Shown here: piece after piece, positions 4,005-51,391 of the stretch | Layout: every line of letters starts with the position of its first letter | Numbering within the stretch: position 1 is the stretch's first letter | Source: an uncultured virus (IMG/VR IMGVR_UViG_3300024343_000011) | Lineage: Duplodnaviria; Heunggongvirae; Uroviricota; Caudoviricetes; Crassvirales | Length of the DNA: 64,000 bases | IMG/VR virus record: IMGVR_UViG_3300024343_000011 | Reading direction: 5' to 3' (one strand) | Program-made: the position numbers and the translations under genes | The notes under the pieces: model-generated | The model's database searches: none | Seen by the model: the letters and a program-made list of their open reading frames with translations, nothing else | What the model was told of the DNA's origin: nothing

Positions 4005-4047
4005 AACCACGGAGGGGAGTCGAACCCCTCTCGTTCCTTTCGTGGTT
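4005..4047 (-). ncRNA. tRNA-like minihelix (acceptor-like stem + T-arm)
   Basis: AACCACG-AAAGGAACGA-GAGGGG-UUCGACU-CCCCUC-CGUGGUU; perfect stems and a canonical T-loop. Confidence 0.65.
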
Positions 4048-4360
4048 AGTCCTCGTCGTGTCCAAGCATCTGAGCCAGTGCCTTGTGCATGTCGAGTGGG
4101 ATAAAGTCCTCGACGTGGCTGTACTCTTTTAACTTGCCCTTGATGTGCCATACTAGGTCTTGCAGTTCGCTCACCTCGTTAGGGCTGGGCTCCACCAACT
4201 CGATGTTGGTGTCCTCGACGATGATGTTGCACTGCTCCAACTCTTGGTAGTTTATGGTGTCCTTGTTGTCGTCCAACCAATCGTGTACCTCGATGGTGTT
4301 CTCTGCATCTACTACCAACTCTGTGGCGTAGGTTCTGCTGATGATTACGTTGTATTTCAT
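4046..4360 (-). CDS. hypothetical protein
   Basis: 104-aa ORF with TAATG coupling. Confidence 0.65.
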   Translation of the reverse strand: MKYNVIISRTYATELVVDAENTIEVHDWLDDNKDTINYQELEQCNIIVEDTNIELVEPSPNEVSELQDLVWHIKGKLKEYSHVEDFIPLDMHKALAQMLGHDED

Positions 4361-5117: not shown

Positions 5118-5516
5118 TTATTTTCTTGATTCTATCCAAAGTTTAGCGCGATAGTTCATCTCTGACTCAGACATTACCACGTCGATGAAGTCGGTTCCCT
5201 CTAGGTTCACCACGTTCAACTCTATGATTTGGTTTCCCTCGTCGACAGATACGTGGTATCCGTTCTCCTCGAACCATAGCCATGCCATCTGAAATTCAGT
5301 CCTACTTGGGGCTTGGCTCATGACTTTGTGTAGGTCGGTATCTTGGAAGTGCATCTCGCTTCCGTCCAAGAAGTACAAGGTCTGACGTGTGCCGTCGATG
5401 GTCTCCACGATGTGGGCTCTGACCTCGCCGTGCTCGATTACTTCGTACATGCTGTCGTCCTCGCTAGAGATGATGTAAGGCCATTTTACTTCGGGTAATT
5501 TGTTTAAGTGCTTCAT
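5118..5516 (-). CDS. hypothetical protein
   Basis: MKHLNKLPEVKW...; start 20 nt after the hammerhead cleavage site. Confidence 0.7.
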   Translation of the reverse strand: MKHLNKLPEVKWPYIISSEDDSMYEVIEHGEVRAHIVETIDGTRQTLYFLDGSEMHFQDTDLHKVMSQAPSRTEFQMAWLWFEENGYHVSVDEGNQIIELNVVNLEGTDFIDVVMSESEMNYRAKLWIESRK

Positions 5517-5530
5517 GTTCTTGTTGTTTT

Positions 5531-5586
5531 GGTTAAGATGGGGTGCTTCCACCCCATTTCGACTATTAAAGTCTCATCAGTTAACC
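5531..5586 (-). ncRNA. type I hammerhead ribozyme (AUC cleavage)
   Basis: GGUUAA-CUGAUGA-GACU-UUAAU-AGUC-GAAA-UGGGGUG-GAAG-CACCCCA-UC-UUAACC: complete core and three stems. Confidence 0.9.
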
Positions 5587-5880
5587 TTATTTTGATACGA
5601 TGCTATGCTCTTTGATATGTATGGCACAATCATATTCGCAGTTGATTGTTGTGCGCTCGTATCGTGTTCCTCCTTTGGCCGATTGACGTAATACCTTTGT
5701 CAAGTTCGCATAGTTGTAGGGGATGTCCTTGAACGTGTAGATTGGAGAGGTCTCCTCGATTAAGGTCACCGATAATGGCGTGTAACCTAGTTTAGCGATG
5801 CCATTGTACATGGCTTTGATGTTGGTGTACACGTCCGTGTGAAGGCCGTCCTCACTTAGATTGATTGAATAGATTTTCAT
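5587..5880 (-). CDS. hypothetical protein flanked by two hammerheads
   Basis: 97-aa ORF. Confidence 0.7.
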   Translation of the reverse strand: MKIYSINLSEDGLHTDVYTNIKAMYNGIAKLGYTPLSVTLIEETSPIYTFKDIPYNYANLTKVLRQSAKGGTRYERTTINCEYDCAIHIKEHSIVSK

Positions 5881-5894
5881 GTCGTTGTTGTGTT

Positions 5895-5961
5895 GGTTAA
5901 GACATGGATGAGTTCGCTATGCTCACCCATGTTTCGGTCATTCAGACCTCCTCAGTTAACC
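5895..5961 (-). ncRNA. type I hammerhead ribozyme (GUC cleavage)
   Basis: GGUUAA-CUGAGGA-GGUC-UGAAU-GACC-GAAA-CAUGGGUGAG-N9-CUCAUCCAUG-UC-UUAACC. Confidence 0.9.
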
Positions 5962-6228
5962 TTGGGTGATTGCTTCCTTGATGGCCTTTAGTTCAGCCCT
6001 CATTTGTGTGGCCGTCCCCTTGATGCCAAAGTAAGCCTTGACGTCCGATATCTTCCAATGACGATTGGGCTTCATTCCAATTTCGTACAAGCCTAGGTCT
6101 CTGATTGTAACGATTAGATTGTAGTACCCCTTTGGAGTAACTTTTCCGTTGATGTTGATGGCCTTACTCTCGTCGATTAGGTCTGCGAAGAATTGGCTTT
6201 TTCCGTTGATGATTTGTTGTGTGTTCAT
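5956..6228 (-). CDS. first gene of the early operon, hypothetical
   Basis: 90-aa ORF; its stop codon lies inside hammerhead stem I. Confidence 0.7.
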   Translation of the reverse strand: MNTQQIINGKSQFFADLIDESKAININGKVTPKGYYNLIVTIRDLGLYEIGMKPNRHWKISDVKAYFGIKGTATQMRAELKAIKEAITQG

Positions 6229-6379: not shown

Positions 6380-6660
6380 TATGATGCGACCATGGGCGGG
6401 GTGTAATGGAAACTCTGAGCGTTTCCGCAGTTTCCGTGCGCTGAGTGGAGCGGGGCACGGGGTCGGGGCTCCGATGGGCACCGCACGGGGCACCCACCTA
6501 GGGCACGGGCGGGCGGTTAGGGTAGGCGCAAGCACCAACCCAAAAGGCCAAAAAATCGGGGCAAGGCCGACCCTCCGATACCCCATGGGGCAAAAAAGAT
6601 CGCTTTCCCCAGCGGCCGGGCCAACGCAATATGGGGGTATTACCCAAAACCTCAGCCCAT
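6380..6660. other. GC-rich non-coding region at the strand switch (candidate genome end/packaging region)
   Basis: G-run-rich with repeated GGGCAC/GCACGGG; lies between divergent gene blocks. Confidence 0.45.
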
Positions 6661-7347: not shown

Positions 7348-7401
7348 AAGACATTTTAATGTCTTTCTATCGGCCTGATCAACATTTATTATCTTCGCAC
7401 A

Positions 7402-8784: not shown

Positions 8785-10356
8785 ATGATCGTAAAACAAG
8801 TAGACTTCGGCATCGAAGCAAGGGAGAAATTAGTATCTGGAATAGATATTATCGCAAATGCTGTTAAAAGCACGCTAGGCGCTAGGGGCCAGACAGTCTT
8901 AATTGAATCAGACCAGCACACTCATGGCTTGGCGATTACAAAAGACGGGGTCACGGTCGCAAGATCTATCTATTTAGAGGACGCTACCCAAAACTTAGCC
9001 GTTATGATGGTAAAAGAGGCATCCGAGAAGACGGCAACAGCTGCAGGCGACGGAACGACAACTTCTATCGTACTAACCCAAGGGTTAATCCATGGCTCGC
9101 AGCAGTTCATGAAGGCCGAGGACAACCCAACAAAGGTGCTGAGAGAGGTAAAAGAGCTAGCACTGTCAGTTGCGCAGGCATTGGACAGCATGGCTATCCC
9201 CGTTACAGACGATTCTATGGCCTCTGTAGCCACGATCTCCGCAAACAATGACCCAGAGCTAGGGCAGATCATCTCAGACGCTTACAGCATGGTCGGAAAA
9301 GACGGTGTGGTGACCGTTGAGACGTCTCAAAGCTCAAAGACTTACTCTGAGGTGGTATCTGGCATGAAGCTGGGCCGCGGATGGATGTCAAAGTACTTCG
9401 TGACTGACCAGAAGAAGGGCGAGGCGATCCTAGAGGACTGCTACATCTTAATCTCAGACCAGGAGATTACTTCATTGAACAATATCGAGCACCTGCTGGC
9501 ACCGGTTGTGCAGAGCGGTAAGAGCATACTAATTATCGCCGAGATGTCGGAGAACGCACTGAACTCTCTTAACCTTAACAGGCTGAAGGGTGTGATCAGG
9601 GCATGCGCTATCGTTCCACCGAGCTTCGGTCACATGAGATCCGAGATCATGGAGGACATCGCTGCGGCTACCGGGGCACGATTCATCTCTGACGGAACCG
9701 GAGACAATCTGTCTCTGGTCTCGTTTACTGATTTAGGCCATGCCCAGAAGGTGGTGGTCGGAAAGGAGTCGACGATTATCATCACCGACAACGATCTATC
9801 AGAAGAACTTGCTTCTAGAATCGAGGGCATCCGCAATAACCTTGCAGAGGCTACCAACGAGGGTGTGAAGAAGTTCTTGGAGGAGAGGCTCGCTAACCTT
9901 GCGGGCGGCGTTGGCGTTATCTACGTCGGAGCGCAGAGCGATGTCGAGATGAAGGAGAAGAGGGACCGTGTAGAGGACGCAGTGTACGCGACCAAGGCGG
10001 CGATGGAGGGAGGCATTCTTCCTGGCGGTGGTATTGCACTGCTTAACATAGCCGGCGAGATCTGCGGATGCTCTACAGCTAAGAGCATTATCAAGTACGC
10101 ACTGCAGCAGCCATTCAACGTGATCCTAGAGAACGGCGGCTATGACCCGAACGAGGTAAAGGGGGACATTGCCCTAAACTATCAAAATAGTTTCGGGTAT
10201 GGATTCGACGTGAAAGAGGGTGTTGTAGGGAATATGATCGAAATGGGAATCATCGACCCATTAAAGGTTACCAAGAGCGCATTGGAGAACGCTGTCAGCG
10301 TTGCAACGACGATCTTGAGCACCAACTGTATCATCACTAACGTAAGAGCAAAATGA
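8785..10356 (+). CDS. groEL: chaperonin GroEL (phage-encoded)
   Basis: VKSTLG, ITKDGVTVA, AGDGTTT, ERLANLAGG, RVEDA, GIIDPLKV motifs; no GGM tail. Confidence 0.97.
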   Translation: MIVKQVDFGIEAREKLVSGIDIIANAVKSTLGARGQTVLIESDQHTHGLAITKDGVTVARSIYLEDATQNLAVMMVKEASEKTATAAGDGTTTSIVLTQGLIHGSQQFMKAEDNPTKVLREVKELALSVAQALDSMAIPVTDDSMASVATISANNDPELGQIISDAYSMVGKDGVVTVETSQSSKTYSEVVSGMKLGRGWMSKYFVTDQKKGEAILEDCYILISDQEITSLNNIEHLLAPVVQSGKSILIIAEMSENALNSLNLNRLKGVIRACAIVPPSFGHMRSEIMEDIAAATGARFISDGTGDNLSLVSFTDLGHAQKVVVGKESTIIITDNDLSEELASRIEGIRNNLAEATNEGVKKFLEERLANLAGGVGVIYVGAQSDVEMKEKRDRVEDAVYATKAAMEGGILPGGGIALLNIAGEICGCSTAKSIIKYALQQPFNVILENGGYDPNEVKGDIALNYQNSFGYGFDVKEGVVGNMIEMGIIDPLKVTKSALENAVSVATTILSTNCIITNVRAK

Positions 10357-11655: not shown

Positions 11656-11706
11656 TACACAACTCTATCATGTGACTTTGTCACATAATATTCTTATCTT
11701 TGCAAT

Positions 11707-17033: not shown

Positions 17034-17404
17034 AAACCTTTTTGAAATTTGAGTTCACCCCTACACAATGGGCAACACTTCGCAAGTTAATAGAGCAAAC
17101 TACAACCACACCCGACGGGGAGCAAACTTCTTGGGTTAATTGTGCAGTAGTTGAGATAGGATTTATTTGTTTAGAGTGGGGGCAAGTGGATGACAAACCC
17201 GTGTGTACCAAGCAGTCCGATAAATGGGCGGTTGATATTCTATTTTATGCAGAACCACCAAAACAATTTGAGCCGTATGAGGTATTTCCGTCGCCAGTCG
17301 GAATACATACGTTTGCTGGTTGTGATGATTTGTATTTACAAAGTTTTTGCCGTAAATTCCCAGATAGTGAATATTGCAAATTGCCAGAATTAAATGCAAA
17401 ATAA
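17030..17404 (+). CDS. fibre-associated protein (apparent homing target gene)
   Basis: 124 aa; VDIL...P.GIHTFAG motif. Confidence 0.7.
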   Translation: MKTFLKFEFTPTQWATLRKLIEQTTTTPDGEQTSWVNCAVVEIGFICLEWGQVDDKPVCTKQSDKWAVDILFYAEPPKQFEPYEVFPSPVGIHTFAGCDDLYLQSFCRKFPDSEYCKLPELNAK

Positions 17405-18224
17405 AATAGGCATAGTATACAAATGGGAAAACATTGATAACCAGAAATGGTATATCGGGTCACACTATGGCAAATTAGATGATGGGTATATTGGTAGCGG
17501 TAAGGTTTTTCAAAACGCATACGCAAAAAATCAAAATAAAATGATTCGTTCTATTTTGTATACGGGCCAAGATTTTAGACAAGCGGAGGAGTTTTTTTTA
17601 TTGTATTTAGATGCCGCACGAGATAGGCAAAGTTATAACATGAAAAACACGGCATTGGGCGGAGGGCCAACTGTTGAAAATATGTCAATTGAAACAAGGC
17701 AAAGAATATCTGATGCCTTAAGAAATCGTGTAAGAAAACCATTTTCCGAGGAGACAAAAAACAAAATTAGCGCAACGCTTACAGGAAGGAAAGTGCCAAA
17801 AGAACTTTGCGAAAAAAGAAAATTAAATTCATTAGGCGATAAAAATCCATTTTATGGCAAAGTCCATACTGATGAGACAAAAGAAAAAATTAGAACGGCC
17901 AACAAAGGCAAGTGTCACTCTGGATTTGAATTTATGAAAGCCTTACACAAAAAGGCGCAAAAAAAAGTTTATTCTGGATTGTGCAATTTGACATTTGACT
18001 CACATAACGATTGTGCAAAATATTTTAATGTAAACCCTTCATCAATTTCAAACATGATAGCAAATAGAATAAAAAATAGGTTTTTATTAACCATAGAAAT
18101 GCCAAATCCTTGCGGGGTGCATACATTCAGCGGTGATGAGAGTTTGTATCTCAAGACCTTTTGTGCCAAGTTCCCCGATTCACCTTATTGCATAATCCCA
18201 ACACCAAATGATTCAACAAACTGA
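17394..18224 (+). mobile_element. GIY-YIG homing endonuclease with NUMOD3-like repeats
   Basis: GIVY..EN..N.KWYIGSH, YN...GG, SEETKNKIS, NPFYGKVHTDETKEKI. Confidence 0.9.
18102..18224 (+). repeat. displaced duplicate of the 3' end of gene 17030-17404
   Basis: PNPCGVHTFSGDESLYLKTFCAKFPDSPYC vs PSPVGIHTFAGCDDLYLQSFCRKFPDSEYC (from 17288). Confidence 0.9.
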
Positions 18225-38307: not shown

Positions 38308-38324
38308 TATCGTAACTTTGCATA

Positions 38325-39119: not shown

Positions 39120-39140
39120 CTTCGCTATCTTTGCGTAGCA

Positions 39141-41707: not shown

Positions 41708-44700
41708 ATGCCAAATAAAATAGACGCTCTTTACTCAGAAGTATCCAAGTCATACGAAGTAGGCTCGATTGACGACTTTAAGAAATATTTGGCCGACCCT
41801 AAGAAGAGGCAGTTGTTTTTTAAGGAAGTAATTGCACCTGAGTATGACGTGAAGTCTATCGAAGACTTTGACGAGGCATACGGATTTAAAAAAAAAAGTA
41901 CGGAGTCTCTTTCTCAAGGGGCTCAAAAAGATATTTTCTCGGTTTCTGGAGAGACGCCGAAAGCTGGGCCTTCGGCGCCTTCTGTAAATCCTCCAAGCAA
42001 TAAGCTTCAAGAGGAATTATTCCAAAAGTCAAGACTAGCCGCTAGCGCATTTGTTAATCCAATGAAGCCGGGGTATACCCCTGTCCCAGAGGCCGAGGCA
42101 AAGAAAGCTTTTTATGGTAAGGCTAATGTAGAAGCGGGAACTCTTAGGGGGATTCCTGGCGAGACAAAAAGCACCGTAGCCAATCTTAACGACAAGTATA
42201 AAAAACTTGGTGTTCAATTTAAAGAAGCTCCTAGTAAAATTCAGAAAAGTTTTGGATTAGGAGACATTGTCGTAACGGCAGACGATGGGTCTACGCACAT
42301 TGTTCAGTCTACAGGTGCTGATGAAAAATTGAGAGAAGAGGAAGCAAAGTTGCAGGAATTCCTAATGGGTAAGTCTGCTGGTGCAGAAAAGAAAGAGGTA
42401 ACTCCTATGGATTTCTTGATGATGTCAAGAGATGGTATATCTCCACAAGAAGAGGGCAAGTTTAAAAGAGTATACAGCCAAGAGATGGTTGACAACTCTA
42501 TTAAGTTTGCAAATGACGAGTTAAACAATACAAAGAAAGCTGTAGACGATATCAACAAAGAGGTATCTCAATTGAACGAAGAAGCCAAAAAGATATCTGA
42601 GATAGTTGCAGTAAGTGGAGTTACTCCAGAAATTGAGGAAACGTACAACTCAATTACTCAGAGATATCAAGACTTACAGGCAAGAGCAGATGAAAGAGTT
42701 AATTATGCAAAAAGCATAGCCACATTGGCTGATGAAGGGGTGAAGAAAGCAGCTGGTGAGAACACTCGTCTTTTGTCATACAATGGAAATATTCCTAGCG
42801 CATTGTACAACTCTCTTTTGAAAGGAGCTAAAGATTTGGTTGGTGGAGCAATGGCTGCACTTCCAGAGGTGGCCGATATTGCTACATTGGGTGCTTCTGA
42901 AAGTTTTTATGGAGACAAGGTGCAAGCCAAGGAGGATTCTAAAAAGTTTCTTGACGAAATATATGACAACTTAAAAGCAGATGGTGTTTCAAAAGAATAC
43001 ACAACGCAGGGCAATATGGCGTGGAAAGCCTTGTTCTCTGTTCCAGAATTTATACCATCTTTACTAGTTCCTGGTGGAGCTGCCGCTAGAGTAACAGCTA
43101 TGACTACTCAGGGCATTGGCAGACGATACGAGGAGATGAACAGTAATCCAGAGACAAAGAATCTTATAGAAGAGGAAAAGTTCTTTATGGCTGCTGGGCC
43201 AGCATTGGTAGAGGCCAAGCTCGAGAACTTTGGTTTAACACAATGGCTTGGTGCCAACAAAGGATTGACATCTTCGATATTTGTTAGTGCACTTTCTAAG
43301 GTAGCTCCAAAGGCTGGCATAAGAGGCCTTAATAAGATCATCAATGCAGAGATAAATAATTTGGTCTTGAGAGGAGCGGCCAATACAGCTGGTGCAATGA
43401 TAAGCGAGTTTGAAACAGGAGCTCTTCAAAACATTTCAGAGACTGCGTTTAGAGATGCATACGAAATAGCAAAGGATAAAAACTTATTCAAGCAGCCTGG
43501 GTTTGGTGAGGATGGATTCAAGAAAGCGCTGTTAGAAGACGCAATGCTAGAGAGTCTGGGGGGTATGTGGATGGCCGGAGCTGTGAATATTGCACAGCAA
43601 ACATCAAGCTACATTACCGGAAAGTCTAATACAAATGAAACGTTTAGACTTGTAAAGCAAATACTTGCAGACGAAACTACATCAAAGTCTTTGATCGCTA
43701 CTCTAAAGTCTCAGATAATGGATGGAAAGCTTTCCAAGGAACAAGCCGTAAATACCATTAACAACTTTAACGAGGCCCGTGCTATAACAATGGAGTTGCC
43801 TCAAGACCTTAGCGAAGACAATCAAAGAAAAGCATTTGACTTAATTGCAGAGAAACGTAAGCTTTCAAAACAAATTGAAGGTAAAGATCCTTCATTAGTA
43901 GATAAACAAAAAACGCGTATAACCGCGATTGACCAAGAACTAAAAAACATATCAAATGCCGTTCAAGAGCAAACAACAAGTGAAGTACCTGTACAGCCAG
44001 AAGCCAGAGTTGGCGAAGAAGTGGTCGAAGGAAAACCCCAGCCAGAACCTGAAGTCGTTACCGAAGAAGGTCAAGTCGCAAAAGAAGAAATAGCCACAAA
44101 ACAAAGCGAGACCGAGTCAAAAATAAAAAGAAAAGATTTATTTGATGGCGTTGGAACTTTTTCAAGGCAACTAGGCGGCAGCGATGTGGACGCTGTTCCG
44201 GTATCTCATTCAGAGAATAACGGAATAGAGTTTGTTCAATACGCAAACCCTAACACCGGATCTATAGATGTCGTTGTAACGGGTACTTCAGAAAATGACT
44301 ATGTAGGGTTTTATAGGATTTACGAAAACGGAAAACCTACAAATAAATGGAGTTCGAAGTTTGAAAACCAGTCAAGAAACAAAGAGAACTTTAAGACTAT
44401 GATCAGTGGTGTACAGTCAATGTTGCCAAGTGATCACGAGTATACAGAAAAAACAAGTATCTCTACCGATGGACTTAGAGTTTGGAACCAGCAACTTGGG
44501 CGAGGTTATGAATTGCAATTTGATGAAAAAGGAGATGTAGTAACAAATGAGGTGTCTATCAATGGTGATGCAATTGTAAATGAACTTGGTGTAGATGTAG
44601 TTCCAGGAAATTTCCAGAATATTTCGGTGACAACAAACGATCAATTTGACAAGGCAAAGAAAGCCATACTTCCATACTTAGAAAGTATGGGACTTGGTGA

Positions 44701-47700
44701 GTCTAATATCAAATGGGAAAATGGAACCGTAAAGATAGACTTACCAGTATTAAAAAAGAGTACTACTGTTAAAGATCAAAAGGAAGTATCAGTAGATAAA
44801 CAGGCAATTGCCAATAACACATCACTAGAAGTAGACTCTATTAAAAACGCAGCTGTAGACGTAGAAACTGGCCAGACGTTTAACATAGACGGAACTGTTT
44901 ATACTGGAGGTGGATTAGTTGTTCCTGTTGCAAGCCAAAACTTAACACAAGAAGAGCTTACCCCAGAGCTAATTGCTGACTTTGTAGAACAAAACAAAAG
45001 CAAGGTAGGGTCAAATGCTGTAAAGGTTGGAATTTATAAGTTCCCGAATAGTAACAAAGTATCTATCGACTTAAACATAGTGGTTCCAAGAGAGAATAGA
45101 GAGGCAGCTCTTGAGTTTGGAAGATTGTCGGGACAAGAATCATTGTTTGACTTGGATACTTTCGAGAACGTAAAGACTGGAGCAGATGGAAATAACCCGA
45201 TAGAATTTAACGATGATCAATTTGTAGACATCGCAAAAAAGCTAGAAAGTGGAATTGTTCCAGATGTATCTGTGCAAACAGAGTTCGATCAGGCCTTGAA
45301 CAAGTCTGCTCAAGCACTTAACATGGTGGCACCGGGATTAAAGGTGATAGTGGGGGAGAATATTGACGATGTACAGAACCAAATCGTAGAGGCACTAGCT
45401 CCATTAGTTGGCGAGAGACAGGCCGTAAAGGCATCCGAGGAGTTTGCCCAAGGCACTAGGGGTCAGACAATCTTTGTTGACGGCAAGCCAGTAGCTATTG
45501 TATTCGATAAGACTACCGCGGATAGCCGTACAATTGGACACGAAGCATGGGAGACAATGCTGAACGATGCGTTCGGCAACGACCAAGCCAAGTTCAAGGA
45601 GTTTACAGCAGGCATCGACGCACAGCTAAGGGCTCAAGGTTTTACTGATATCGCTGATGCTTTGGATGCATTTGCCAGCCAGAAGGGCTACGAAGCCGTA
45701 AAATACTCGGAGTACATGGCTGAGCTTGGAGGTATGTTGGTAGAGGCTGGCTTCGGAAAGGGATCACTAACGGCTCAACAGAAGACATTACTACAGAAGA
45801 TCGGTGACATCATCAATAAGTTTGCTGAGCTATTCACCGGCAAGAAGCAGTTTTTAGATCAGGCTACTCCAGAGGATATCCTTGGATTCATGGTGACCAT
45901 CTCTGAGAAGGTTGCTAAGGGTGAGGACGTGTCAAGCTTCTTTAGAAAAGGCGAGAAGGCTAAGGCTAAGGAAGGCGTGACATCTAGAAAGCAGGCAGAG
46001 AAAATATTCACAGGAGAAGAAAAGGTACCTACATTCAAGAGCCTTCCAGAGATAGCCAATTGGCTTGAGGGTTGGTCCAAGAAGAATAAAATATTTGCAA
46101 AAGACATAAAGGATGTATCTGATCAAGAGTTTGTAAAGAAGCTTGAGTCTCATACATTAAAAGAGCTAGCGGCTTGGGATGGTGTTCGTGGTCAGGACTA
46201 TGTAAGCTTCTATGTTGGAGATATCGTAGATCGCCTTAATCCTAAATTGCAAAAATTCGCAGAGGCTAGATACGGAAGGATGTTGACTCCAGGCGAGGTA
46301 ACTCTTTACCACGCTGTCAGCGGATTTGCATCTCCACAGGCAGATCCTATGTTTGACTCTAGTAAGGGTCTTGAGATATTCGACAAGTACATGAATGGTG
46401 GAAAGCCAGATGTAAATAAACTATCTGGTTATGCTGACAAGCAAGCTACTATATATGAATTAAACGACAAAGGAAAGAAAGTAGATACAGGTAAATTAAA
46501 GTTTGACAAAGAGGGAAATCCTGTTTACTCTCAAGTCTCAATGCACTACGCTGTACCTTCTTTGAATAAAATGAAGGCCATGATATCTCATTTTGAAGGA
46601 GATGTTGAAAAGGCTATGGAATGGATGACATCTATCCACTCTTACGAAGAGATATCCGAAGTAATGGGTACTCCATTAAAAGGGGCTAAGGCTCTTACTC
46701 CTCACGAGAACTTGAGCAAGGAAGACGGTGGATTTGGTATCTTTGGATTTACTGGTGCCAAGTTGGGATCTTATATCCTTAACAGGGTCGGAGAGTACTC
46801 TACGGTTACCAAGGACATGTGGTACGCCAGAACAATGGCAAGACTAGTTGGCGAGCCATTGACAAAAGATGGCAAGGCCATGACAGACCCATGGGCAGCT
46901 GGCACTGTTGCTGGTGTGAAGAAAAGAAAACTTGCAGATCAGGCTTGGGAATCAGTTGCTAAGAAATTAAATATTAGCCCGTCTGACGTTCAAGAAAGAA
47001 TGTGGGACTTTGAGAAAAGACTTTATGAGAAGATGGGTGCTATAGAAAAGGCATCTTACGCCTCAGAAGGTTTCATGAAGACCGCAAAGAAGCTTGAGCC
47101 AGGCTTAGATCTAGAGACCAAGGTGGTGGAGTCACGCTCACAGAAGAATGTACCACCGGTAGTAGACGAGGTTCTTACCGATGACGGTAAGGGCAACTAC
47201 TTATTCGTTCACTACTCTGATGAGAATAGAGATGTGATCAAGCCAATGTCAGGATCTAAGAGCAACTTCACAAGCCGTGAAGAGGTATCTGCGATATCTG
47301 CAGTAGGTGGTGTTGCAATGTACTACACAAAGTCCGGCCAGAAAGAGAGCGGTGTTGGTAATGTTCCACACACAGTTTTAGTTCCAAAGGACAAGGTATA
47401 CTTCTACGGAAGCACAAAAAAGGGGACCGTCTCTCACGATCCAGAAGGATTCGAGGAAGAGGCAAGACAAAGATTCCAGGCCTACAGGAACCGTGGAAAC
47501 GAGGACAGACCAACAAAGTATGCGTTTGATGCAAACAACTCAGCAGCTTGGGTGACCAAGGTTGCCGGTGAGAATGGTTACGACATGCTAGTTACCAACT
47601 GGGGAGGACCTAACAGTTACCGTGCTCAGACTACCAAGGCATTAAAGCCAGAGGCAGAGTACACTGGTTTCAAGAAGCCAGAGCCTGTGGTATTTGAGGT

Positions 47701-50700
47701 AGGAGACGAGGTCTTCTTGTATGGAAGATATGCTACTATTGTAGCTGTTGATGGGGACGTCCTTTCGTATGAATCTCAAAACGACTTCGGAAGATTTGAT
47801 ACTGGTAAGTTCACGTTGTCACCATATACAAGCTACAAGATCACAATGATCGAGAAGGCTAAGCCGTCTGTTACAACTCGCTCTCAGAAGGTAGAGGTAA
47901 AGACCATCCCTGGATACGACAGAATGATGAACGAGGTCGAGGGTATTATGGACAAGAGCATCAACAGGGGCAGGTCTTATAATCAAACAAGCGCTAACGC
48001 AGTTGACTACATTCAGAAGTCATCTGTTTATGAAAGGGCAGACGATTCTCAGCGTGAGCAGATCATCCGCGACTTCAAGAAGATCAGAGGAGAGAAGTTT
48101 AAGACCGCTCCGTCTGTGGCTAAAATACTAGGCCAGATCGAGGACGTAAAAAAGGTAACAGTAAAAGAGAGCACAGCGCTTAAGGATCAGATCAAGTTGG
48201 AGGCAAAGGCAGCCAAGGACTCTGCAGCCTTTGTAAAGCAGCTCCGCATGGACATCTCTGGTAGGTTAAAGTCTATGGTTGGCCGTGGCATGATGTCTGC
48301 TAGACAGGCCACCGCTATTATCTCTCGCTACGACAAGATGAACATATTGAACCCTGTGATGCGTGACCGCTTTGTAGACTACATGTCTAGGGTATTCCAA
48401 AGCGCTGAGTACATGGACAAGATCAAGGAAGCGTCAAAGCTTAGAGCATCTATCAAGAAGGCCATGAAGTCACCTGCAAACCAAGCAGAGATTGCAAAGC
48501 TTGCTAAGGACTTTGGAGACATTGATCCGTCTCGCGTAGAGAATATTGACGACTATATTAACAACGCAACACAGATGCTAAACGCAGTGGCCAGAAAGAC
48601 TGGAGATCCATTGATGCGTAGCCTTGTGAATGCTGCTGATATGAACTCTTATATTGATATAGAGATCGAGGCACAGAGAGAGCAGATCAAGAACGAGTTA
48701 CTAGACAAGTATAAAGAATTGGTAGACGCTGGTGTATTGTCAAGCGACATGACCATCAATGAGATCAAGAAGGTCGTTGCAGCTATTGAGGAAAACGATA
48801 GCGATGCTGTAGCCAAGGAAGAGAAGGCAAAGGCCGCTGTCAAGGAAATGATGGCCGAGGTATCCCCATTGATTGTGCAGATCGTTAAGACTGGAGAGGA
48901 TCCATTCACTGGCGAGCCTATATCACTTACACAGGACGAGAAGAAGTCATTGATCGCATTGACTAATATTGACACCGACAGTCTTTCATTGTCAGAGGCA
49001 TTGCAGGTCCTTGAATATGCCAACAACTTTGTTGCAAATGGTATCACTTCTGGTATCGATGGAATGGTAAGCCTTTACCAAGGAGGACTGAATGCCGGAG
49101 AGCTAGTTGATGATGGTATCAAGTCTATCCCATTGAGCAAGTACTTCTCTGGGCTAGTTGGAAGAGTATGGGGCGAAGGATTCGCAACGCTTCCAATGCT
49201 TAACAAGTTATTATGGGGTAACACAAGGCGTGCTATAATGGTCTCTGAGAAGGCCGGAATCAATGGAGTGTCGAATGGTAAGGCCAAGGCCTTGAAGATG
49301 GTTGACAATGCTGTTAAACAGTACGTAAAGCTATTCTCGAAGACCAAGGACTTCTTGGCAAGTGAGAATGTTGTCGAGCGTGGTGTATTTGCATTCATGT
49401 CTAGAAACGTGGTCGGCGATGAATTCCAGGCGCAAGACGAGTTTAATAGGCGCAAATCACTCATTAAGGAAACAATCCAGGCGCTATCTGACGTAGACAA
49501 CAACACTGAATCAGAAATCAAGAAGGGCGAGGTCATCCAAAAGGTGTACGACAAGGTCTTGAAAGATGCCAAGAATATTAATGACGTCAAGAAAAACGTA
49601 AGCCAGATAAACCAAGACGCTGTAAACTGGTGGATAAACAAGTGGTCTGAGAACTTCGACCGTATCGACGAGGTATCTAGAAACGTGTACAACACACAGC
49701 TGTCTAGGGACATTGACTTTACACCCGACAGGTTCCAACTAAAGGAGGCACCAACAGCTGTAGAGGAAGACTTTGAGTCTGGATTCTTTGGAAACTTTGA
49801 GTACGTTGACACATCTAAGTCAGGATCACTGAGAAAAAATAACCGTATCTCTAATCTTCCAAAGGACAAGAACGGTGTTAAAACCCGTATAGTCAACCTT
49901 GACTTCGACGTTAACAATGTTAACGCATTGACAAGTGCAATGGTAGACGTAGAGACCGCTAGCTCTGTAATGCAGATGAAAGGTTTTGTTACATCTAAAA
50001 ACTTCTCAAAGCTTTTCTCAAACAAGGAAGACAAGAACCTTTACAAGAAGAGACTGATCAAGTACGTAAACCGTGCCAAGGGTGGTTCTTATGTGGACCA
50101 GAATGAGCTTTCAAAGATAAATAGAACAATTAATACCATTGCATCATTTGGTGTTGCTAAGGCATTGTTCAGTGTGTCACAGCCATTTAAGCAGTTCTTT
50201 CCTCCAATGATAAACACTTTTGTTCAGACAGGTAGGTTTGACTTAAACAAGTTGCTGTACAATGGCGGAATGGGCTTTATTGACAGTTCTGGTTATCCTA
50301 TCGCCAACCGTGGTGTCGCATCTCAGGGTGAACTTAAGTCTATCAACAGACAGTTGGTAGAGGCAGAGAAGAACTTGGCCATGCGTGGACTAGATGGTGT
50401 TGCGGAGTTTAGCAACAAGACTCTTGAAATTACACTTAAGAATCCGGACATTTTTGCTGCACGTGCCTCTTGGATTTCTTTTTACTTGAGCAAGTTGAAG
50501 AAGCAGGGTGTAAATATCTCTGGAATAGATTTCAATACTCACGAGCTAAATAAAGATGCGGCCGACTACGCACAGGCGATGGTTGACTCTCAGCAAAACA
50601 TCAGTGACACTGACATGCAGGGAGAGATCTTCGCTAGCAAGCAGCCAGCTACTGTGTTCTTGAGACGTGCCATTCTTCCATTGATGACATTTACCTTAAA

Positions 50701-51391
50701 CCAAAAGACTCGTATATGGTCTGACGTAAGAACCCTTTCAAATGACGTGTCGTCAAAAAATGACAAGGTAGAGGCGGCCAAGTCTTTATCTGGAGCGTTG
50801 ATCGAGTTAGTAGCGTTCCAGGGAATAGTACTTGCGTTCAAGGAGCTTTACAATGTAGTAGCAGCTGCCATCATGGGTGAAGATGAGGACGAAGAGGAAA
50901 AGAAAATCAGAAAGATGAGACAGTCTCAATCCACTGCTCAGGCATTCATGAAGGACTTCTTCTTGCCACCGATCCCCGGAATGGACATATTAGCTAGCAA
51001 GGGTGTCAATTACCTTTTAGACGAGACGGGCCTATCTGACGAGTTGCCATACAAGTGGTACGGTATCGAGGACGAGGAGCAGAAGTTCAGACTGTACGAC
51101 AAGATGAACAAAGGTTACTTGGACATGCTTGGAACGCAGGGTATCGCAGCTGAGAAAGCTCTTGAGCTAATCGAATACTATGACGCTGCTATCGATGGCG
51201 AGTTCACCAAAGAGTACAACGGCAATAAAGTAAAAAAGGCCCTCATGGAAGAGGACCTTGATATAGCTAGAATGAATGCTATTATTATGACTGCTTATTA
51301 TGGAGGTGTGTTACCATCAGACATGGCTAACATCGTCAACATAATGAACAAGAAGATTCAGAAGAGAGCAGAGCAGGTAGACGAGGACTAG
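41708..51391 (+). CDS. giant (3227 aa) polyvalent internal virion/ejection protein
   Basis: Last late gene; modular; GHEAWE zincin-like and TKDMWYAR glycosylase-like motifs. Confidence 0.65.
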   Translation: MPNKIDALYSEVSKSYEVGSIDDFKKYLADPKKRQLFFKEVIAPEYDVKSIEDFDEAYGFKKKSTESLSQGAQKDIFSVSGETPKAGPSAPSVNPPSNKLQEELFQKSRLAASAFVNPMKPGYTPVPEAEAKKAFYGKANVEAGTLRGIPGETKSTVANLNDKYKKLGVQFKEAPSKIQKSFGLGDIVVTADDGSTHIVQSTGADEKLREEEAKLQEFLMGKSAGAEKKEVTPMDFLMMSRDGISPQEEGKFKRVYSQEMVDNSIKFANDELNNTKKAVDDINKEVSQLNEEAKKISEIVAVSGVTPEIEETYNSITQRYQDLQARADERVNYAKSIATLADEGVKKAAGENTRLLSYNGNIPSALYNSLLKGAKDLVGGAMAALPEVADIATLGASESFYGDKVQAKEDSKKFLDEIYDNLKADGVSKEYTTQGNMAWKALFSVPEFIPSLLVPGGAAARVTAMTTQGIGRRYEEMNSNPETKNLIEEEKFFMAAGPALVEAKLENFGLTQWLGANKGLTSSIFVSALSKVAPKAGIRGLNKIINAEINNLVLRGAANTAGAMISEFETGALQNISETAFRDAYEIAKDKNLFKQPGFGEDGFKKALLEDAMLESLGGMWMAGAVNIAQQTSSYITGKSNTNETFRLVKQILADETTSKSLIATLKSQIMDGKLSKEQAVNTINNFNEARAITMELPQDLSEDNQRKAFDLIAEKRKLSKQIEGKDPSLVDKQKTRITAIDQELKNISNAVQEQTTSEVPVQPEARVGEEVVEGKPQPEPEVVTEEGQVAKEEIATKQSETESKIKRKDLFDGVGTFSRQLGGSDVDAVPVSHSENNGIEFVQYANPNTGSIDVVVTGTSENDYVGFYRIYENGKPTNKWSSKFENQSRNKENFKTMISGVQSMLPSDHEYTEKTSISTDGLRVWNQQLGRGYELQFDEKGDVVTNEVSINGDAIVNELGVDVVPGNFQNISVTTNDQFDKAKKAILPYLESMGLGESNIKWENGTVKIDLPVLKKSTTVKDQKEVSVDKQAIANNTSLEVDSIKNAAVDVETGQTFNIDGTVYTGGGLVVPVASQNLTQEELTPELIADFVEQNKSKVGSNAVKVGIYKFPNSNKVSIDLNIVVPRENREAALEFGRLSGQESLFDLDTFENVKTGADGNNPIEFNDDQFVDIAKKLESGIVPDVSVQTEFDQALNKSAQALNMVAPGLKVIVGENIDDVQNQIVEALAPLVGERQAVKASEEFAQGTRGQTIFVDGKPVAIVFDKTTADSRTIGHEAWETMLNDAFGNDQAKFKEFTAGIDAQLRAQGFTDIADALDAFASQKGYEAVKYSEYMAELGGMLVEAGFGKGSLTAQQKTLLQKIGDIINKFAELFTGKKQFLDQATPEDILGFMVTISEKVAKGEDVSSFFRKGEKAKAKEGVTSRKQAEKIFTGEEKVPTFKSLPEIANWLEGWSKKNKIFAKDIKDVSDQEFVKKLESHTLKELAAWDGVRGQDYVSFYVGDIVDRLNPKLQKFAEARYGRMLTPGEVTLYHAVSGFASPQADPMFDSSKGLEIFDKYMNGGKPDVNKLSGYADKQATIYELNDKGKKVDTGKLKFDKEGNPVYSQVSMHYAVPSLNKMKAMISHFEGDVEKAMEWMTSIHSYEEISEVMGTPLKGAKALTPHENLSKEDGGFGIFGFTGAKLGSYILNRVGEYSTVTKDMWYARTMARLVGEPLTKDGKAMTDPWAAGTVAGVKKRKLADQAWESVAKKLNISPSDVQERMWDFEKRLYEKMGAIEKASYASEGFMKTAKKLEPGLDLETKVVESRSQKNVPPVVDEVLTDDGKGNYLFVHYSDENRDVIKPMSGSKSNFTSREEVSAISAVGGVAMYYTKSGQKESGVGNVPHTVLVPKDKVYFYGSTKKGTVSHDPEGFEEEARQRFQAYRNRGNEDRPTKYAFDANNSAAWVTKVAGENGYDMLVTNWGGPNSYRAQTTKALKPEAEYTGFKKPEPVVFEVGDEVFLYGRYATIVAVDGDVLSYESQNDFGRFDTGKFTLSPYTSYKITMIEKAKPSVTTRSQKVEVKTIPGYDRMMNEVEGIMDKSINRGRSYNQTSANAVDYIQKSSVYERADDSQREQIIRDFKKIRGEKFKTAPSVAKILGQIEDVKKVTVKESTALKDQIKLEAKAAKDSAAFVKQLRMDISGRLKSMVGRGMMSARQATAIISRYDKMNILNPVMRDRFVDYMSRVFQSAEYMDKIKEASKLRASIKKAMKSPANQAEIAKLAKDFGDIDPSRVENIDDYINNATQMLNAVARKTGDPLMRSLVNAADMNSYIDIEIEAQREQIKNELLDKYKELVDAGVLSSDMTINEIKKVVAAIEENDSDAVAKEEKAKAAVKEMMAEVSPLIVQIVKTGEDPFTGEPISLTQDEKKSLIALTNIDTDSLSLSEALQVLEYANNFVANGITSGIDGMVSLYQGGLNAGELVDDGIKSIPLSKYFSGLVGRVWGEGFATLPMLNKLLWGNTRRAIMVSEKAGINGVSNGKAKALKMVDNAVKQYVKLFSKTKDFLASENVVERGVFAFMSRNVVGDEFQAQDEFNRRKSLIKETIQALSDVDNNTESEIKKGEVIQKVYDKVLKDAKNINDVKKNVSQINQDAVNWWINKWSENFDRIDEVSRNVYNTQLSRDIDFTPDRFQLKEAPTAVEEDFESGFFGNFEYVDTSKSGSLRKNNRISNLPKDKNGVKTRIVNLDFDVNNVNALTSAMVDVETASSVMQMKGFVTSKNFSKLFSNKEDKNLYKKRLIKYVNRAKGGSYVDQNELSKINRTINTIASFGVAKALFSVSQPFKQFFPPMINTFVQTGRFDLNKLLYNGGMGFIDSSGYPIANRGVASQGELKSINRQLVEAEKNLAMRGLDGVAEFSNKTLEITLKNPDIFAARASWISFYLSKLKKQGVNISGIDFNTHELNKDAADYAQAMVDSQQNISDTDMQGEIFASKQPATVFLRRAILPLMTFTLNQKTRIWSDVRTLSNDVSSKNDKVEAAKSLSGALIELVAFQGIVLAFKELYNVVAAAIMGEDEDEEEKKIRKMRQSQSTAQAFMKDFFLPPIPGMDILASKGVNYLLDETGLSDELPYKWYGIEDEEQKFRLYDKMNKGYLDMLGTQGIAAEKALELIEYYDAAIDGEFTKEYNGNKVKKALMEEDLDIARMNAIIMTAYYGGVLPSDMANIVNIMNKKIQKRAEQVDED

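What the first reader, a model, noticed from the sequence alone, without database searches (positions are those of the whole stretch)
5895..5961. Type I hammerhead whose stem I contains the stop codon of the first early gene
Seen: CUGAGGA and GAAA core; stem II GGUC/GACC; 10-bp stem III with one G-U; GUC triplet; stem I GGUUAA/UUAACC. The 5' arm GGU-UAA is the last codon and stop of ORF 5956-6228. Inference: a terminating ribosome would melt stem I, so cleavage could be coupled to translation of the upstream gene. No obvious stem I extension for tertiary contacts is visible, so the rate may be modest.
Basis: partly seen in the sequence, partly recalled or inferred. Interest (0 to 1): 0.82.

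Follow-up and report, generated by a model that had tools for sequence, protein, structure and literature searches.

The report
Two phage hammerhead ribozymes between genes
The flagged stretch is a genuine self-cutting hammerhead RNA motif, one of two that separate small genes in a crAss-like phage; this arrangement has been known in phages since 2011, and the stop codon inside its closing helix looks like tight gene packing rather than a regulatory switch.

Summary
Window 5895-5961 (minus strand) is a complete type I hammerhead, and the UAA stop of ORF 5956-6228 forms nt 4-6 of stem I. A second hammerhead with the same stem I lies at 5531-5586. The window holds 2 complete motifs against 0 in 200 shuffles. 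A covariance model built without window sequences scores them 53 and 62 bits, next best 11.6. Rfam's curated models miss both.

They belong to a very large phage class: a stem I of exactly 6 bp flanked by conserved unpaired A's, a 4-bp stem II with a U-N-A-N-N loop, the upstream stop at or inside the 5' edge, and the next AUG about 20 nt after the cut.

Most likely they cut the early polycistronic RNA into single-gene mRNAs with uniform leaders that lack a Shine-Dalgarno sequence.

Stop placement varies (-9, -8, -3, +1), even at orthologous junctions. This argues against a special stop-in-stem coupling, and the coupling remains untested.

Related phages show that the ribozyme-leader modules recombine with each other, bound swapped gene cassettes, and in one case split a gene.

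This is a new member of a known kind (Perreault 2011). The scan has reported the same pattern on other genomes.

The parts
5895..5961 (-). HH1, a type I hammerhead. Stem I is 5956-5961 with 5895-5900. Core CUGAGGA is 5949-5955. Stem II plus loop is 5936-5948. GAA is 5933-5935. Stem III is 5902-5932. C17 is 5901. Predicted cut is between 5901 and 5900.
   Evidence: Read directly. The MFE equals the hammerhead fold. Scores 59.7 bits with model R1 (this copy was in that model's training set) and 53.2 bits, E 1.5e-11, with leave-out model R2.
5531..5586 (-). HH2, a second type I hammerhead with the identical stem I GGUUAA/UUAACC. Core is CUGAUGA, stem II is GACU/AGUC with loop UUAAU, stem III is 8 bp, and C17 is 5537. 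Predicted cut is between 5537 and 5536.
   Evidence: Scores 62.0 bits, E 6.9e-14, with leave-out model R2. Rfam RAGATH-1-hammerhead gives only 25.1 bits against a gathering score of 56.3.
5962..5962 (-). Unpaired A immediately 5' of stem I of HH1 (family position -7). The same holds at 5587 for HH2.
   Evidence: This position is A in 126 of 127 unbiased family members and invariant in the 11 copies of this phage lineage.
5893..5894 (-). Unpaired AA immediately 3' of stem I of HH1 (family positions +7 and +8). The same holds at 5529-5530 for HH2.
   Evidence: A in 116 of 128 (+7) and 93 of 128 (+8). Invariant AA in the lineage alignment.
5956..6228 (-). ORF1 (90 aa, no family match). Its stop UAA (5956-5958) is nt 4-6 of the stem I 5' arm of HH1.
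   Evidence: No Pfam or PHROGs hit.
5881..5900 (-). Predicted 20-nt 5' leader of the ORF2 mRNA after cleavage: UUAACC followed by a CA-rich tract, with no Shine-Dalgarno motif.
   Evidence: In the lineage the distance from cleavage to AUG is 18-21 nt, and exactly 20 nt in 8 of 11 copies.
5587..5880 (-). ORF2 (97 aa, no family match), bracketed by HH1 and HH2. Its stop TAA (5587-5589) directly abuts HH2 and is in frame with the in-stem UAA.
   Evidence: No family hit. An 85% identical homologue is followed by a hammerhead in a relative.
5118..5516 (-). ORF3 (132 aa from ATG 5516, no family match). Its AUG lies 20 nt after the HH2 cut. No ribozyme follows it in the window, although one does in three relatives.

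Best explanation
HH1 (5895-5961) and HH2 (5531-5586) are functional self-cleaving type I hammerhead ribozymes. They lie in the leftward operon of small unknown genes of a crAss-like phage, probably of Bacteroidota. Calling these genes early is an inference from their size and position.

The two copies belong to a very large class of phage hammerheads defined by:
- a 6-bp stem I whose outermost pair is usually G-C and which is flanked by unpaired A's;
- a 4-bp stem II with a 5-nt U-N-A-N-N loop;
- a variable stem III.

As the polycistronic RNA is made, each ribozyme folds and cuts after C17. This separates ORF1, ORF2 and ORF3 into single-gene mRNAs. The upstream piece keeps the whole ribozyme as a structured 3' end carrying a 2',3'-cyclic phosphate. 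The downstream piece starts with 5'-OH-UUAACC and a uniform, unstructured, CA-rich 20-nt leader without a Shine-Dalgarno motif, directly in front of its AUG.

What is shown: the motif, the covariation, family membership and the conserved spacing. What is inferred: cleavage itself, and its purpose, namely independent translation and stability of each cistron and removal of the stable ribozyme hairpins from the start region.

The stop codon inside stem I is one of several interchangeable ways in which upstream ORFs run into the ribozyme. The ribozyme supplies UAA and UGA in two of the three frames. The in-stem stop is therefore best read as packing or cassette structure, not as a dedicated sensor.
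For: All consensus positions of the hammerhead core are present in both copies. The window holds 2 motifs against 0 in 200 shuffles.

Model R2 was built from 97 family members without any window sequence. It scores 62.0 and 53.2 bits on the two copies, with the next hit at 11.6 bits.

In an unbiased scan of viral contigs for the core plus stem II only, 128 of 137 distinct matches are complete type I hammerheads, and 117 of those 128 have a stem I of exactly 6 bp. Stems covary: 439 double-change cells against 106 in shuffles, and 30-36% of cells paired when the partners are slid. The same holds for alignment A1.

Four related contigs were not used in model R1. They carry 4, 2 (one contig fetched twice) and 3 further copies at 56-70 bits, all between ORFs on the coding strand.

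The next start codon lies 18-38 nt after the cut in 84 of 113 family members, and 18-21 nt in all 11 copies of this lineage.

Only 1 of 36 window ORFs has a Shine-Dalgarno-like motif upstream. Pfam finds a crAss muzzle-protein domain and a BT4734-like primase domain.

Perreault et al. 2011 (PMC3088659, passages read) showed in vitro cleavage of tandem hammerheads that flank single genes in prophage transcripts, and proposed exactly this processing role.
Against: There is no experimental or RNA-seq evidence for cleavage in this phage.

Rfam's curated hammerhead models do not reach threshold. There are 0 hits at gathering scores. HH1 does not appear even at E <= 10. HH2 reaches only 25.1 bits with RAGATH-1.

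Stem I is short and AU-rich. With 80 nt of flank the stem I pair probabilities of HH2 fall to about 0.16.

The ribozyme after ORF3 is present in three relatives but absent in the window, so individual copies are dispensable.

Alignments A1 and A2 were assembled by scripts that required pairing, so their percentage paired is by construction.
Confidence: 0.8

Rival explanations
1. Translation-coupled cleavage. The ribosome terminating on the in-stem UAA melts stem I, so the rate or timing of HH1 cleavage is set by translation of ORF1, and this is a selected regulatory link.
For: The stop is in stem I. Across the family, 75 of 116 upstream stops overlap positions -9 to +3 (starts at -9, -8, -5, -4, -3 and +1), so a terminating ribosome would cover the 5' strand of nearly every copy (ribosome footprint size is from general knowledge). 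ORF frames are not uniform relative to the ribozyme, at 56/38/22.
Against: Stop position is not conserved. It is -9 against -8 at the orthologous ORF2 junction, and in-stem against no ribozyme at the ORF3 junction. Only 9 of 48 copies with an in-stem stop triplet use it. The frame bias is what is expected if ORFs simply run on to the ribozyme's UAA or UGA. A ribosome can only delay an irreversible cut, and the stop remains 58 nt from the new 3' end, so termination itself is unaffected.
Confidence: 0.12
2. Ligation or circularisation. Because HH1 and HH2 share an identical stem I, the excised ORF2 RNA (5'-OH-UUAACC ... GGUUAA-core-C>p) can re-form a hammerhead across its own ends and be ligated into a circular mRNA, or be joined to other ribozyme-generated ends.
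For: Both window copies and all 9 copies in the relatives have identical stem I arms. Within a locus, stem I arms are identical in 5 of 15 pairs, against 3.9% between loci. Perreault 2011 raised this possibility.
Against: Perreault 2011 report that they could not detect spliced or circular products (passage read). A 6-bp AU-rich helix should release its product readily (inference). Shared stem I is equally explained by copies descending from and recombining with each other.
Confidence: 0.04
3. The motifs are inactive relics or chance look-alikes and the RNA is not cut.
For: No Rfam hit at curated thresholds. No cleavage data.
Against: 0 of 200 shuffles give any complete motif. Every core position is intact. 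The leave-out model gives E-values of 1e-11 to 1e-13. Stems II and III differ between copies while pairing is kept.
Confidence: 0.03

Closest known systems
Clustered hammerhead ribozymes flanking single genes in prophages and phages (Perreault et al. 2011, PMC3088659; passages read)
   Same: Several hammerheads lie on the coding strand in short intergenic gaps and bracket individual small genes. The proposed role is processing of a polycistronic phage RNA into single-gene mRNAs. One archaeal-virus example there sits 13 nt before a start codon.
   Different: Here the host virus is a crAss-like phage. Two literature searches listed no paper describing hammerheads in such phages. The copies form a tight sub-class with a 6-bp stem I and flanking A's, plus a conserved leader and a fixed distance of about 20 nt to the AUG.
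Rfam RF00163 Hammerhead_1 (type I), clan CL00010
   Same: Same topology (stem I open), same core, same cleavage site.
   Different: The window copies do not reach the gathering score of 34 bits: 0 hits at gathering scores, and RF00163 was not listed at E <= 10 for HH1 or at E <= 1 for either copy. Family members in other contigs score 17.7-30.5 bits.
Rfam RF03152 RAGATH-1 hammerhead
   Same: A phage/metagenome type I hammerhead with a short stem I and a similar stem II. It is the best Rfam match to HH2.
   Different: Its defining upstream hairpin is not formed: the alignment marks non-pairs there, and the score is 25.1 bits against a gathering score of 56.3.
Self-cleaving ribozymes in 5' UTRs of RNA viruses that enable translation initiation (Lopez-Galiano et al. 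2026, PMC13725137; abstract read)
   Same: A type I hammerhead sits just upstream of an ORF, and self-cleavage creates the 5' end from which translation starts.
   Different: Those are eukaryotic RNA viruses with cap-independent translation. Here the virus is a bacterial DNA phage, and any effect on translation is only inferred.

Membership tests
Hammerhead ribozyme, type I | Core C3-U4-G5-A6-N7-G8-A9 between stems I and II | tested here: met
   CUGAGGA at 5955-5949 and CUGAUGA at 5580-5574.
Hammerhead ribozyme, type I | G12-A13-A14 followed by an A15.1-U16.1 pair, then H17 (not G) at the cleavage site | tested here: met
   GAAA ... U-C in both copies. C17 is at 5901 and 5537.
Hammerhead ribozyme, type I | Three helices around the core with stems II and III closed by loops and stem I open, and a G10.1-C11.1 pair | tested here: met
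   The MFE fold equals this structure. The first stem II pair is G-C in both copies.
Hammerhead ribozyme, type I | Helices supported by compensatory changes in relatives | tested here: met
   A1: 172 double-change cells against 46 in shuffles. A2: 439 against 106. The 11 lineage copies carry 5 different stem II 5' arms and 6 different stem III types. Caveat: A1 and A2 were selected for pairing.
Hammerhead ribozyme, type I | Score at or above the curated Rfam threshold (RF00163, 34 bits) | tested here: not met
   0 hits at gathering scores. HH1 is not listed at E <= 10. Neither copy is listed under RF00163 at E <= 1.
Hammerhead ribozyme, type I | Site-specific self-cleavage giving a 2',3'-cyclic phosphate and a 5'-OH | not testable with these tools
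Hammerhead ribozyme, type I | Tertiary contact between loop II and stem I that gives fast cleavage at physiological Mg2+ | tested here: inconclusive
   Candidate partners are conserved: A at -7 in 126 of 127, A at +7 in 116 of 128, and the first loop II nucleotide U in 44 of 44. They do not vary, so there is no covariation, and no structure is available.
Phage class with a 6-bp stem I (own models R1 and R2) | Stem I of exactly 6 bp flanked by A / AA, a 4-bp stem II with a U-N-A-N-N loop, and a high score with a model that excludes the window | tested here: met
   62.0 and 53.2 bits with R2. Both copies have the flanks and the loop pattern.
RAGATH-1 hammerhead (RF03152) | Extra hairpin upstream of stem I, and the gathering score of 56.3 bits | tested here: not met
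   HH2 scores 25.1 bits with non-pairs in the hairpin. HH1 has no match.
Clustered phage hammerheads flanking genes (Perreault 2011) | Two or more hammerheads on the coding strand bracketing a gene in a phage genome | tested here: met
   HH1 and HH2 bracket ORF2 on the minus strand.

The most novel reading that the evidence does not exclude
The hammerhead plus its 20-nt leader is a portable 'cistron punctuation' module that recombines with its own copies and so drives gene-cassette exchange in the early regions of crAss-like phages. It can even split a gene into two separately translated halves.

Evidence so far:
- Among 11 copies in four related phages, stem II and stem III types occur in all four combinations of two pairs. 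This four-gamete pattern points to exchange within the conserved core.
- Window HH1 has the stem II of one relative's copy and the stem III (1 nt different) of another copy that lies elsewhere in that genome.
- Blocks of homology between the window and its closest relative begin or end at hammerheads, with different genes between the same ribozymes.
- In that relative a hammerhead module sits in the middle of the ORF4 homologue, which is a single ORF in the window and in another relative.

A conserved tRNA-like minihelix at the ORF5/ORF6 junction may do the same job through host RNases.
Probability: 0.45. Interest if true: 0.55.

Novelty: new member of a known kind. Interest (0 to 1): 0.32.

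Why it matters
Hammerheads between phage genes have been known since 2011, but reviews still call their purpose undefined (PMC6765202, passages read).

This locus adds a clean, compact example in a crAss-like phage. The fixed 20-nt leader without a Shine-Dalgarno motif, together with the conserved A flanks, gives concrete and testable hypotheses for two things:
- why such phages cut their mRNAs, namely to define the 5' end for translation in hosts that do not use Shine-Dalgarno pairing;
- how a hammerhead with only a 6-bp stem I could be fast.

It also shows that curated Rfam models miss a very abundant phage hammerhead class. If these ribozyme modules do act as recombination joints, that would matter for understanding phage mosaicism.

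Tried and rejected
- **Rfam.** The gathering scan of the whole window gave nothing. The E-value scan of 5800-6060 gave only two spurious lncRNA hits.
- **Phage records.** BLAST of 25 kb and of the locus against GenBank phages gave no match.
- **Own assembly.** It is not held. The nearest record, G001, is a 24-kb fragment that is 100% identical, so it is not independent evidence.
- **More hammerheads in the window.** Full-model searches with two models found only the two copies. Three other loose descriptor hits (17865, 37950, 52264) have 2-3 bp stems and were rejected.
- **tRNAs.** ARAGORN found none.
- **ORF1 homology.** No homology to the gene at the corresponding position of the closest relative (BLASTP no alignment; tblastn none).
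- **Stem I sequence.** The idea that GGUUAA/UUAACC is itself the conserved feature was rejected. In the unbiased sample it is only the commonest of about 60 stem I sequences (18 of 128). What is conserved is the 6-bp length and the flanking A's.
- **Host from cellular genomes.** This gave only weak support. Of 30 titled loci with a complete type I copy, 12 are labelled as Bacteroidota lineages, against 5 of 50 titled loci without one. Some genus-to-phylum assignments are from recall, and MAG binning of phage contigs is unreliable.
- **Earlier notes.** There are none for this genome.

Full report
**1. The observation**

On the minus strand, 5961 to 5895 reads GGUUAA | CUGAGGA | GGUC-UGAAU-GACC | GAA | A-CAUGGGUGAG-(9-nt loop)-CUCAUCCAUG-U | C | UUAACC. 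This is a complete type I hammerhead. Every consensus core position is present. The first stem II pair is G-C. Stem III has an A15.1-U16.1 pair plus ten further pairs, one of them G-U. C17 is at 5901, so the cut is predicted between 5901 and 5900.

The 67-nt stretch folds into exactly this structure: -23.1 kcal/mol, z = -4.0, with 1 of 200 shuffles folding as well. That fold remains the MFE with 40 or 80 nt of flank. A strict descriptor finds two complete motifs in the 64-kb window and none in 200 dinucleotide-preserving shuffles.

**2. A second copy, and what Rfam says**

The second motif, HH2, lies at 5531-5586 on the same strand. It has the identical stem I GGUUAA/UUAACC, core CUGAUGA, stem II GACU/AGUC with loop UUAAU, an 8-bp stem III, and C17 at 5537.

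The layout is ORF1 (5956-6228), HH1, ORF2 (5587-5880), HH2, ORF3 (5118-5516). In both cases the next AUG is 20 nt after the predicted cut. The TAA of ORF2 directly abuts HH2.

Rfam's curated models do not report either copy:
- There are 0 hits at gathering thresholds in the whole window.
- No hammerhead family appears at E <= 10 around HH1.
- HH2 gets only a sub-threshold RAGATH-1-hammerhead match, 25.1 bits against 56.3, in which the family's defining upstream hairpin is not formed.

**3. The family**

The results:
- Of 137 distinct matches, 128 are complete type I hammerheads.
- In 117 of those 128, stem I is exactly 6 bp.
- Stem I sequence varies widely. GGUUAA/UUAACC is merely the commonest, at 18 of 128.
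- The nucleotide just 5' of stem I is A in 126 of 127.
- The nucleotide just 3' of stem I is A in 116 of 128, and the next is A in 93 of 128.

In the first, loop-unbiased alignment the first loop II nucleotide is U in 44 of 44.

These invariant unpaired residues at a fixed distance from the core are the obvious candidates for the loop II/stem I tertiary contact that makes natural hammerheads fast. From memory, a six-pair proximal stem I followed by unpaired residues is also the geometry of the well-studied animal type I hammerhead; I did not check this here. Both window copies carry all of these residues.

Stems covary strongly in both alignments. Because my scripts required pairing when they collected the sequences, the percentage paired is by construction. 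The independent evidence is that 128 of 137 matches are complete motifs.

A covariance model built from 97 of these sequences, with no window sequence, scores HH2 at 62.0 bits and HH1 at 53.2 bits. The next best hit in the window is 11.6 bits.

**4. The stop codon**

In the unbiased sample, 116 copies have an upstream open frame of at least 50 codons. The first base of its stop lies at +1 (the UGA of the CUGA core) in 24, at -9 in 18, at -8 in 17, at -3 (in-stem, as in HH1) in 9, at -5 in 6 and at +11 in 6. Overall 93 of 116 stops start between -15 and +1.

Stem I has a stop triplet at nt 4-6 in 51 of 128 copies. Only 9 of the 48 such copies with a scorable ORF use it. In the GGUUAA-selected set, 14 of 54 use the in-stem UAA.

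Frames are uneven at 56/38/22. This is the expected result if ORFs simply read on until the ribozyme's own UAA or UGA stops them. The copies are also not independent of each other.

Within this phage lineage the position moves at orthologous junctions. ORF2 stops at -9 in the window and at -8 in a relative. ORF3 stops on the in-stem UAA in three relatives, whereas in the window it has its own TAA at that very spot and no ribozyme follows.

So the in-stem stop is real and recurrent, in 5 of 11 lineage copies (my count from the table together with the ORF ends). It is nevertheless interchangeable with neighbouring positions. Any ribosome terminating at -9 to +1 would hold stem I and the core open (ribosome footprint from general knowledge). 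Some interplay is therefore physically unavoidable, but nothing indicates a selected coupling, and a ribosome can only postpone an irreversible cut. Earlier follow-ups in this scan reached the same reading on other genomes.

**5. Context**

The window encodes a terminase, a portal protein and virion proteins. Pfam finds a crAss muzzle-protein C-terminal domain at 59.8 bits, followed by ORFs that include a 3227-aa giant ORF. It also finds a BT4734-like primase, a Sak annealing protein and a Cpn60 chaperonin. I therefore call it a crAss-like phage, probably of Bacteroidota.

Only 1 of 36 ORFs has a Shine-Dalgarno-like motif upstream, as is typical of that phylum (general knowledge).

The six small ORFs around the ribozymes have no family match. 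Calling them 'early' is an inference from their size and position.

Two literature searches listed no paper on hammerheads in crAss-like phages. One preprint says hatchet ribozymes are largely confined to Crassvirales (passage read).

**6. Relatives**

Protein-based searches found three related contigs. Model R1, which did not contain them, finds 4, 2 and 3 hammerheads there at 56-70 bits. All have stem I GGUUAA/UUAACC, the A flanks, and a conserved CA-rich leader that places the AUG 18-21 nt after the cut, exactly 20 nt in 8 of 11 copies.

Presence of a ribozyme varies. The junction after ORF3 has one in all three relatives but not in the window, and ORF1 plus HH1 are missing in one relative.

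Homology blocks between the window and its closest relative start or end at hammerheads, and different genes sit between the same ribozymes.

Stem II and stem III types are reassorted. For two pairs of types, all four combinations exist, which is a four-gamete pattern. Window HH1 combines the stem II of one relative's copy with the stem III, one nucleotide different, of another copy elsewhere in that genome.

In that relative the second copy sits inside the homologue of ORF4. The N-terminal 126 residues and the C-terminal 61 residues lie in two ORFs separated by the ribozyme and a new AUG. In the window and in another relative they are one ORF.

This supports recombination between ribozyme copies. 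It suggests, but does not prove, that the modules act as joints for cassette exchange. A search for this idea in print found nothing relevant among the 6 papers that hold all five terms, judged by titles and abstracts.

**7. Mechanism and rivals**

Best reading (0.8): both motifs self-cleave co-transcriptionally and cut the operon RNA into single-gene mRNAs. Each upstream piece ends in the folded ribozyme. Each downstream piece begins with 5'-OH-UUAACC and a uniform unstructured 20-nt leader.

The purpose is inferred: independent stability and translation of each cistron, and removal of the stable hairpins from the start region in a host that initiates without Shine-Dalgarno pairing. Perreault et al. 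2011 showed in vitro cleavage of comparable tandem arrangements and proposed this role. A 2019 review still calls the purpose undefined. A 2026 paper shows that ribozyme cleavage enables translation initiation in eukaryotic RNA viruses, which is an analogy only (abstract).

Rivals: translation-coupled cleavage (0.12), ligation or circularisation through the shared stem I (0.04; Perreault 2011 did not detect such products), and an inactive relic (0.03).

**8. Verdict**

This is a new member of a known kind, and the scan has reported the same pattern repeatedly on other genomes. The modest added value lies in four points: the crAss-like context, the precisely defined class that Rfam misses, the fixed leader, and the evidence that ribozyme modules recombine.

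Noticed in passing
window 4007-4045 (-): A tRNA-like minihelix lies directly after the TAA of ORF5 (4046-4048) and 22 nt before the ATG of ORF6 (3984). It has a 5-7 bp acceptor-like stem enclosing a perfect T-arm, GGGG-UUCGACU-CCCC. This is the same position a hammerhead occupies at the other junctions. It is conserved, with T-loop changes, after a TAA stop in 3 other related contigs. It may be a host RNase P or RNase Z processing signal that plays the same punctuation role. ARAGORN calls no tRNA here.
   Followed up: partly
window about 6380-6650: About 270 nt of strongly GC-rich, apparently non-coding sequence in a 45% GC phage, in the divergent region upstream of the small-gene operon. There is no Rfam match at E <= 1. 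Parts of it align to relatives at 70-84% identity.
   Followed up: no
window 11692-11706, 38310-38324, 39126-39140, 7387-7401 (+): TAnnTTTG-like motifs (for example TATCTTTGCAAT-ATG) sit only a few nucleotides before the ATG of several rightward genes. They resemble the Bacteroidota -7 promoter box (recalled). They would give leaderless or very short-leader mRNAs, which fits start-codon-proximal 5' ends being favoured in this phage.
   Followed up: no
L254:2795-2861 (related viral contig): A hammerhead plus leader and a new AUG lies inside the homologue of window ORF4. It separates the conserved N-terminal 126 aa and C-terminal 61 aa into two ORFs. The upstream half stops on the in-stem UAA.
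   Followed up: yes
L080, L086, L087, L093, L106, L111, L120, L098, L037 (viral contigs): In these family members stem III is a GC-rich hairpin followed by a U run inside the 3' strand, so it looks like an intrinsic terminator embedded in the ribozyme. Neither window copy has this.
   Followed up: no
window 8785-10356 (+) and 17394-18224 (+): The phage encodes a Cpn60/GroEL-type chaperonin (200 bits) and an ORF with NUMOD3 motifs, which suggests a homing-endonuclease-like protein, among the structural genes.
   Followed up: no
window 41708-51391 (+): A 3227-aa ORF with no Pfam match lies three ORFs downstream of the ORF carrying the crAss muzzle-protein domain. By position it may correspond to the giant virion-packaged protein of crAss-like phages (recalled, not tested).
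   Followed up: no
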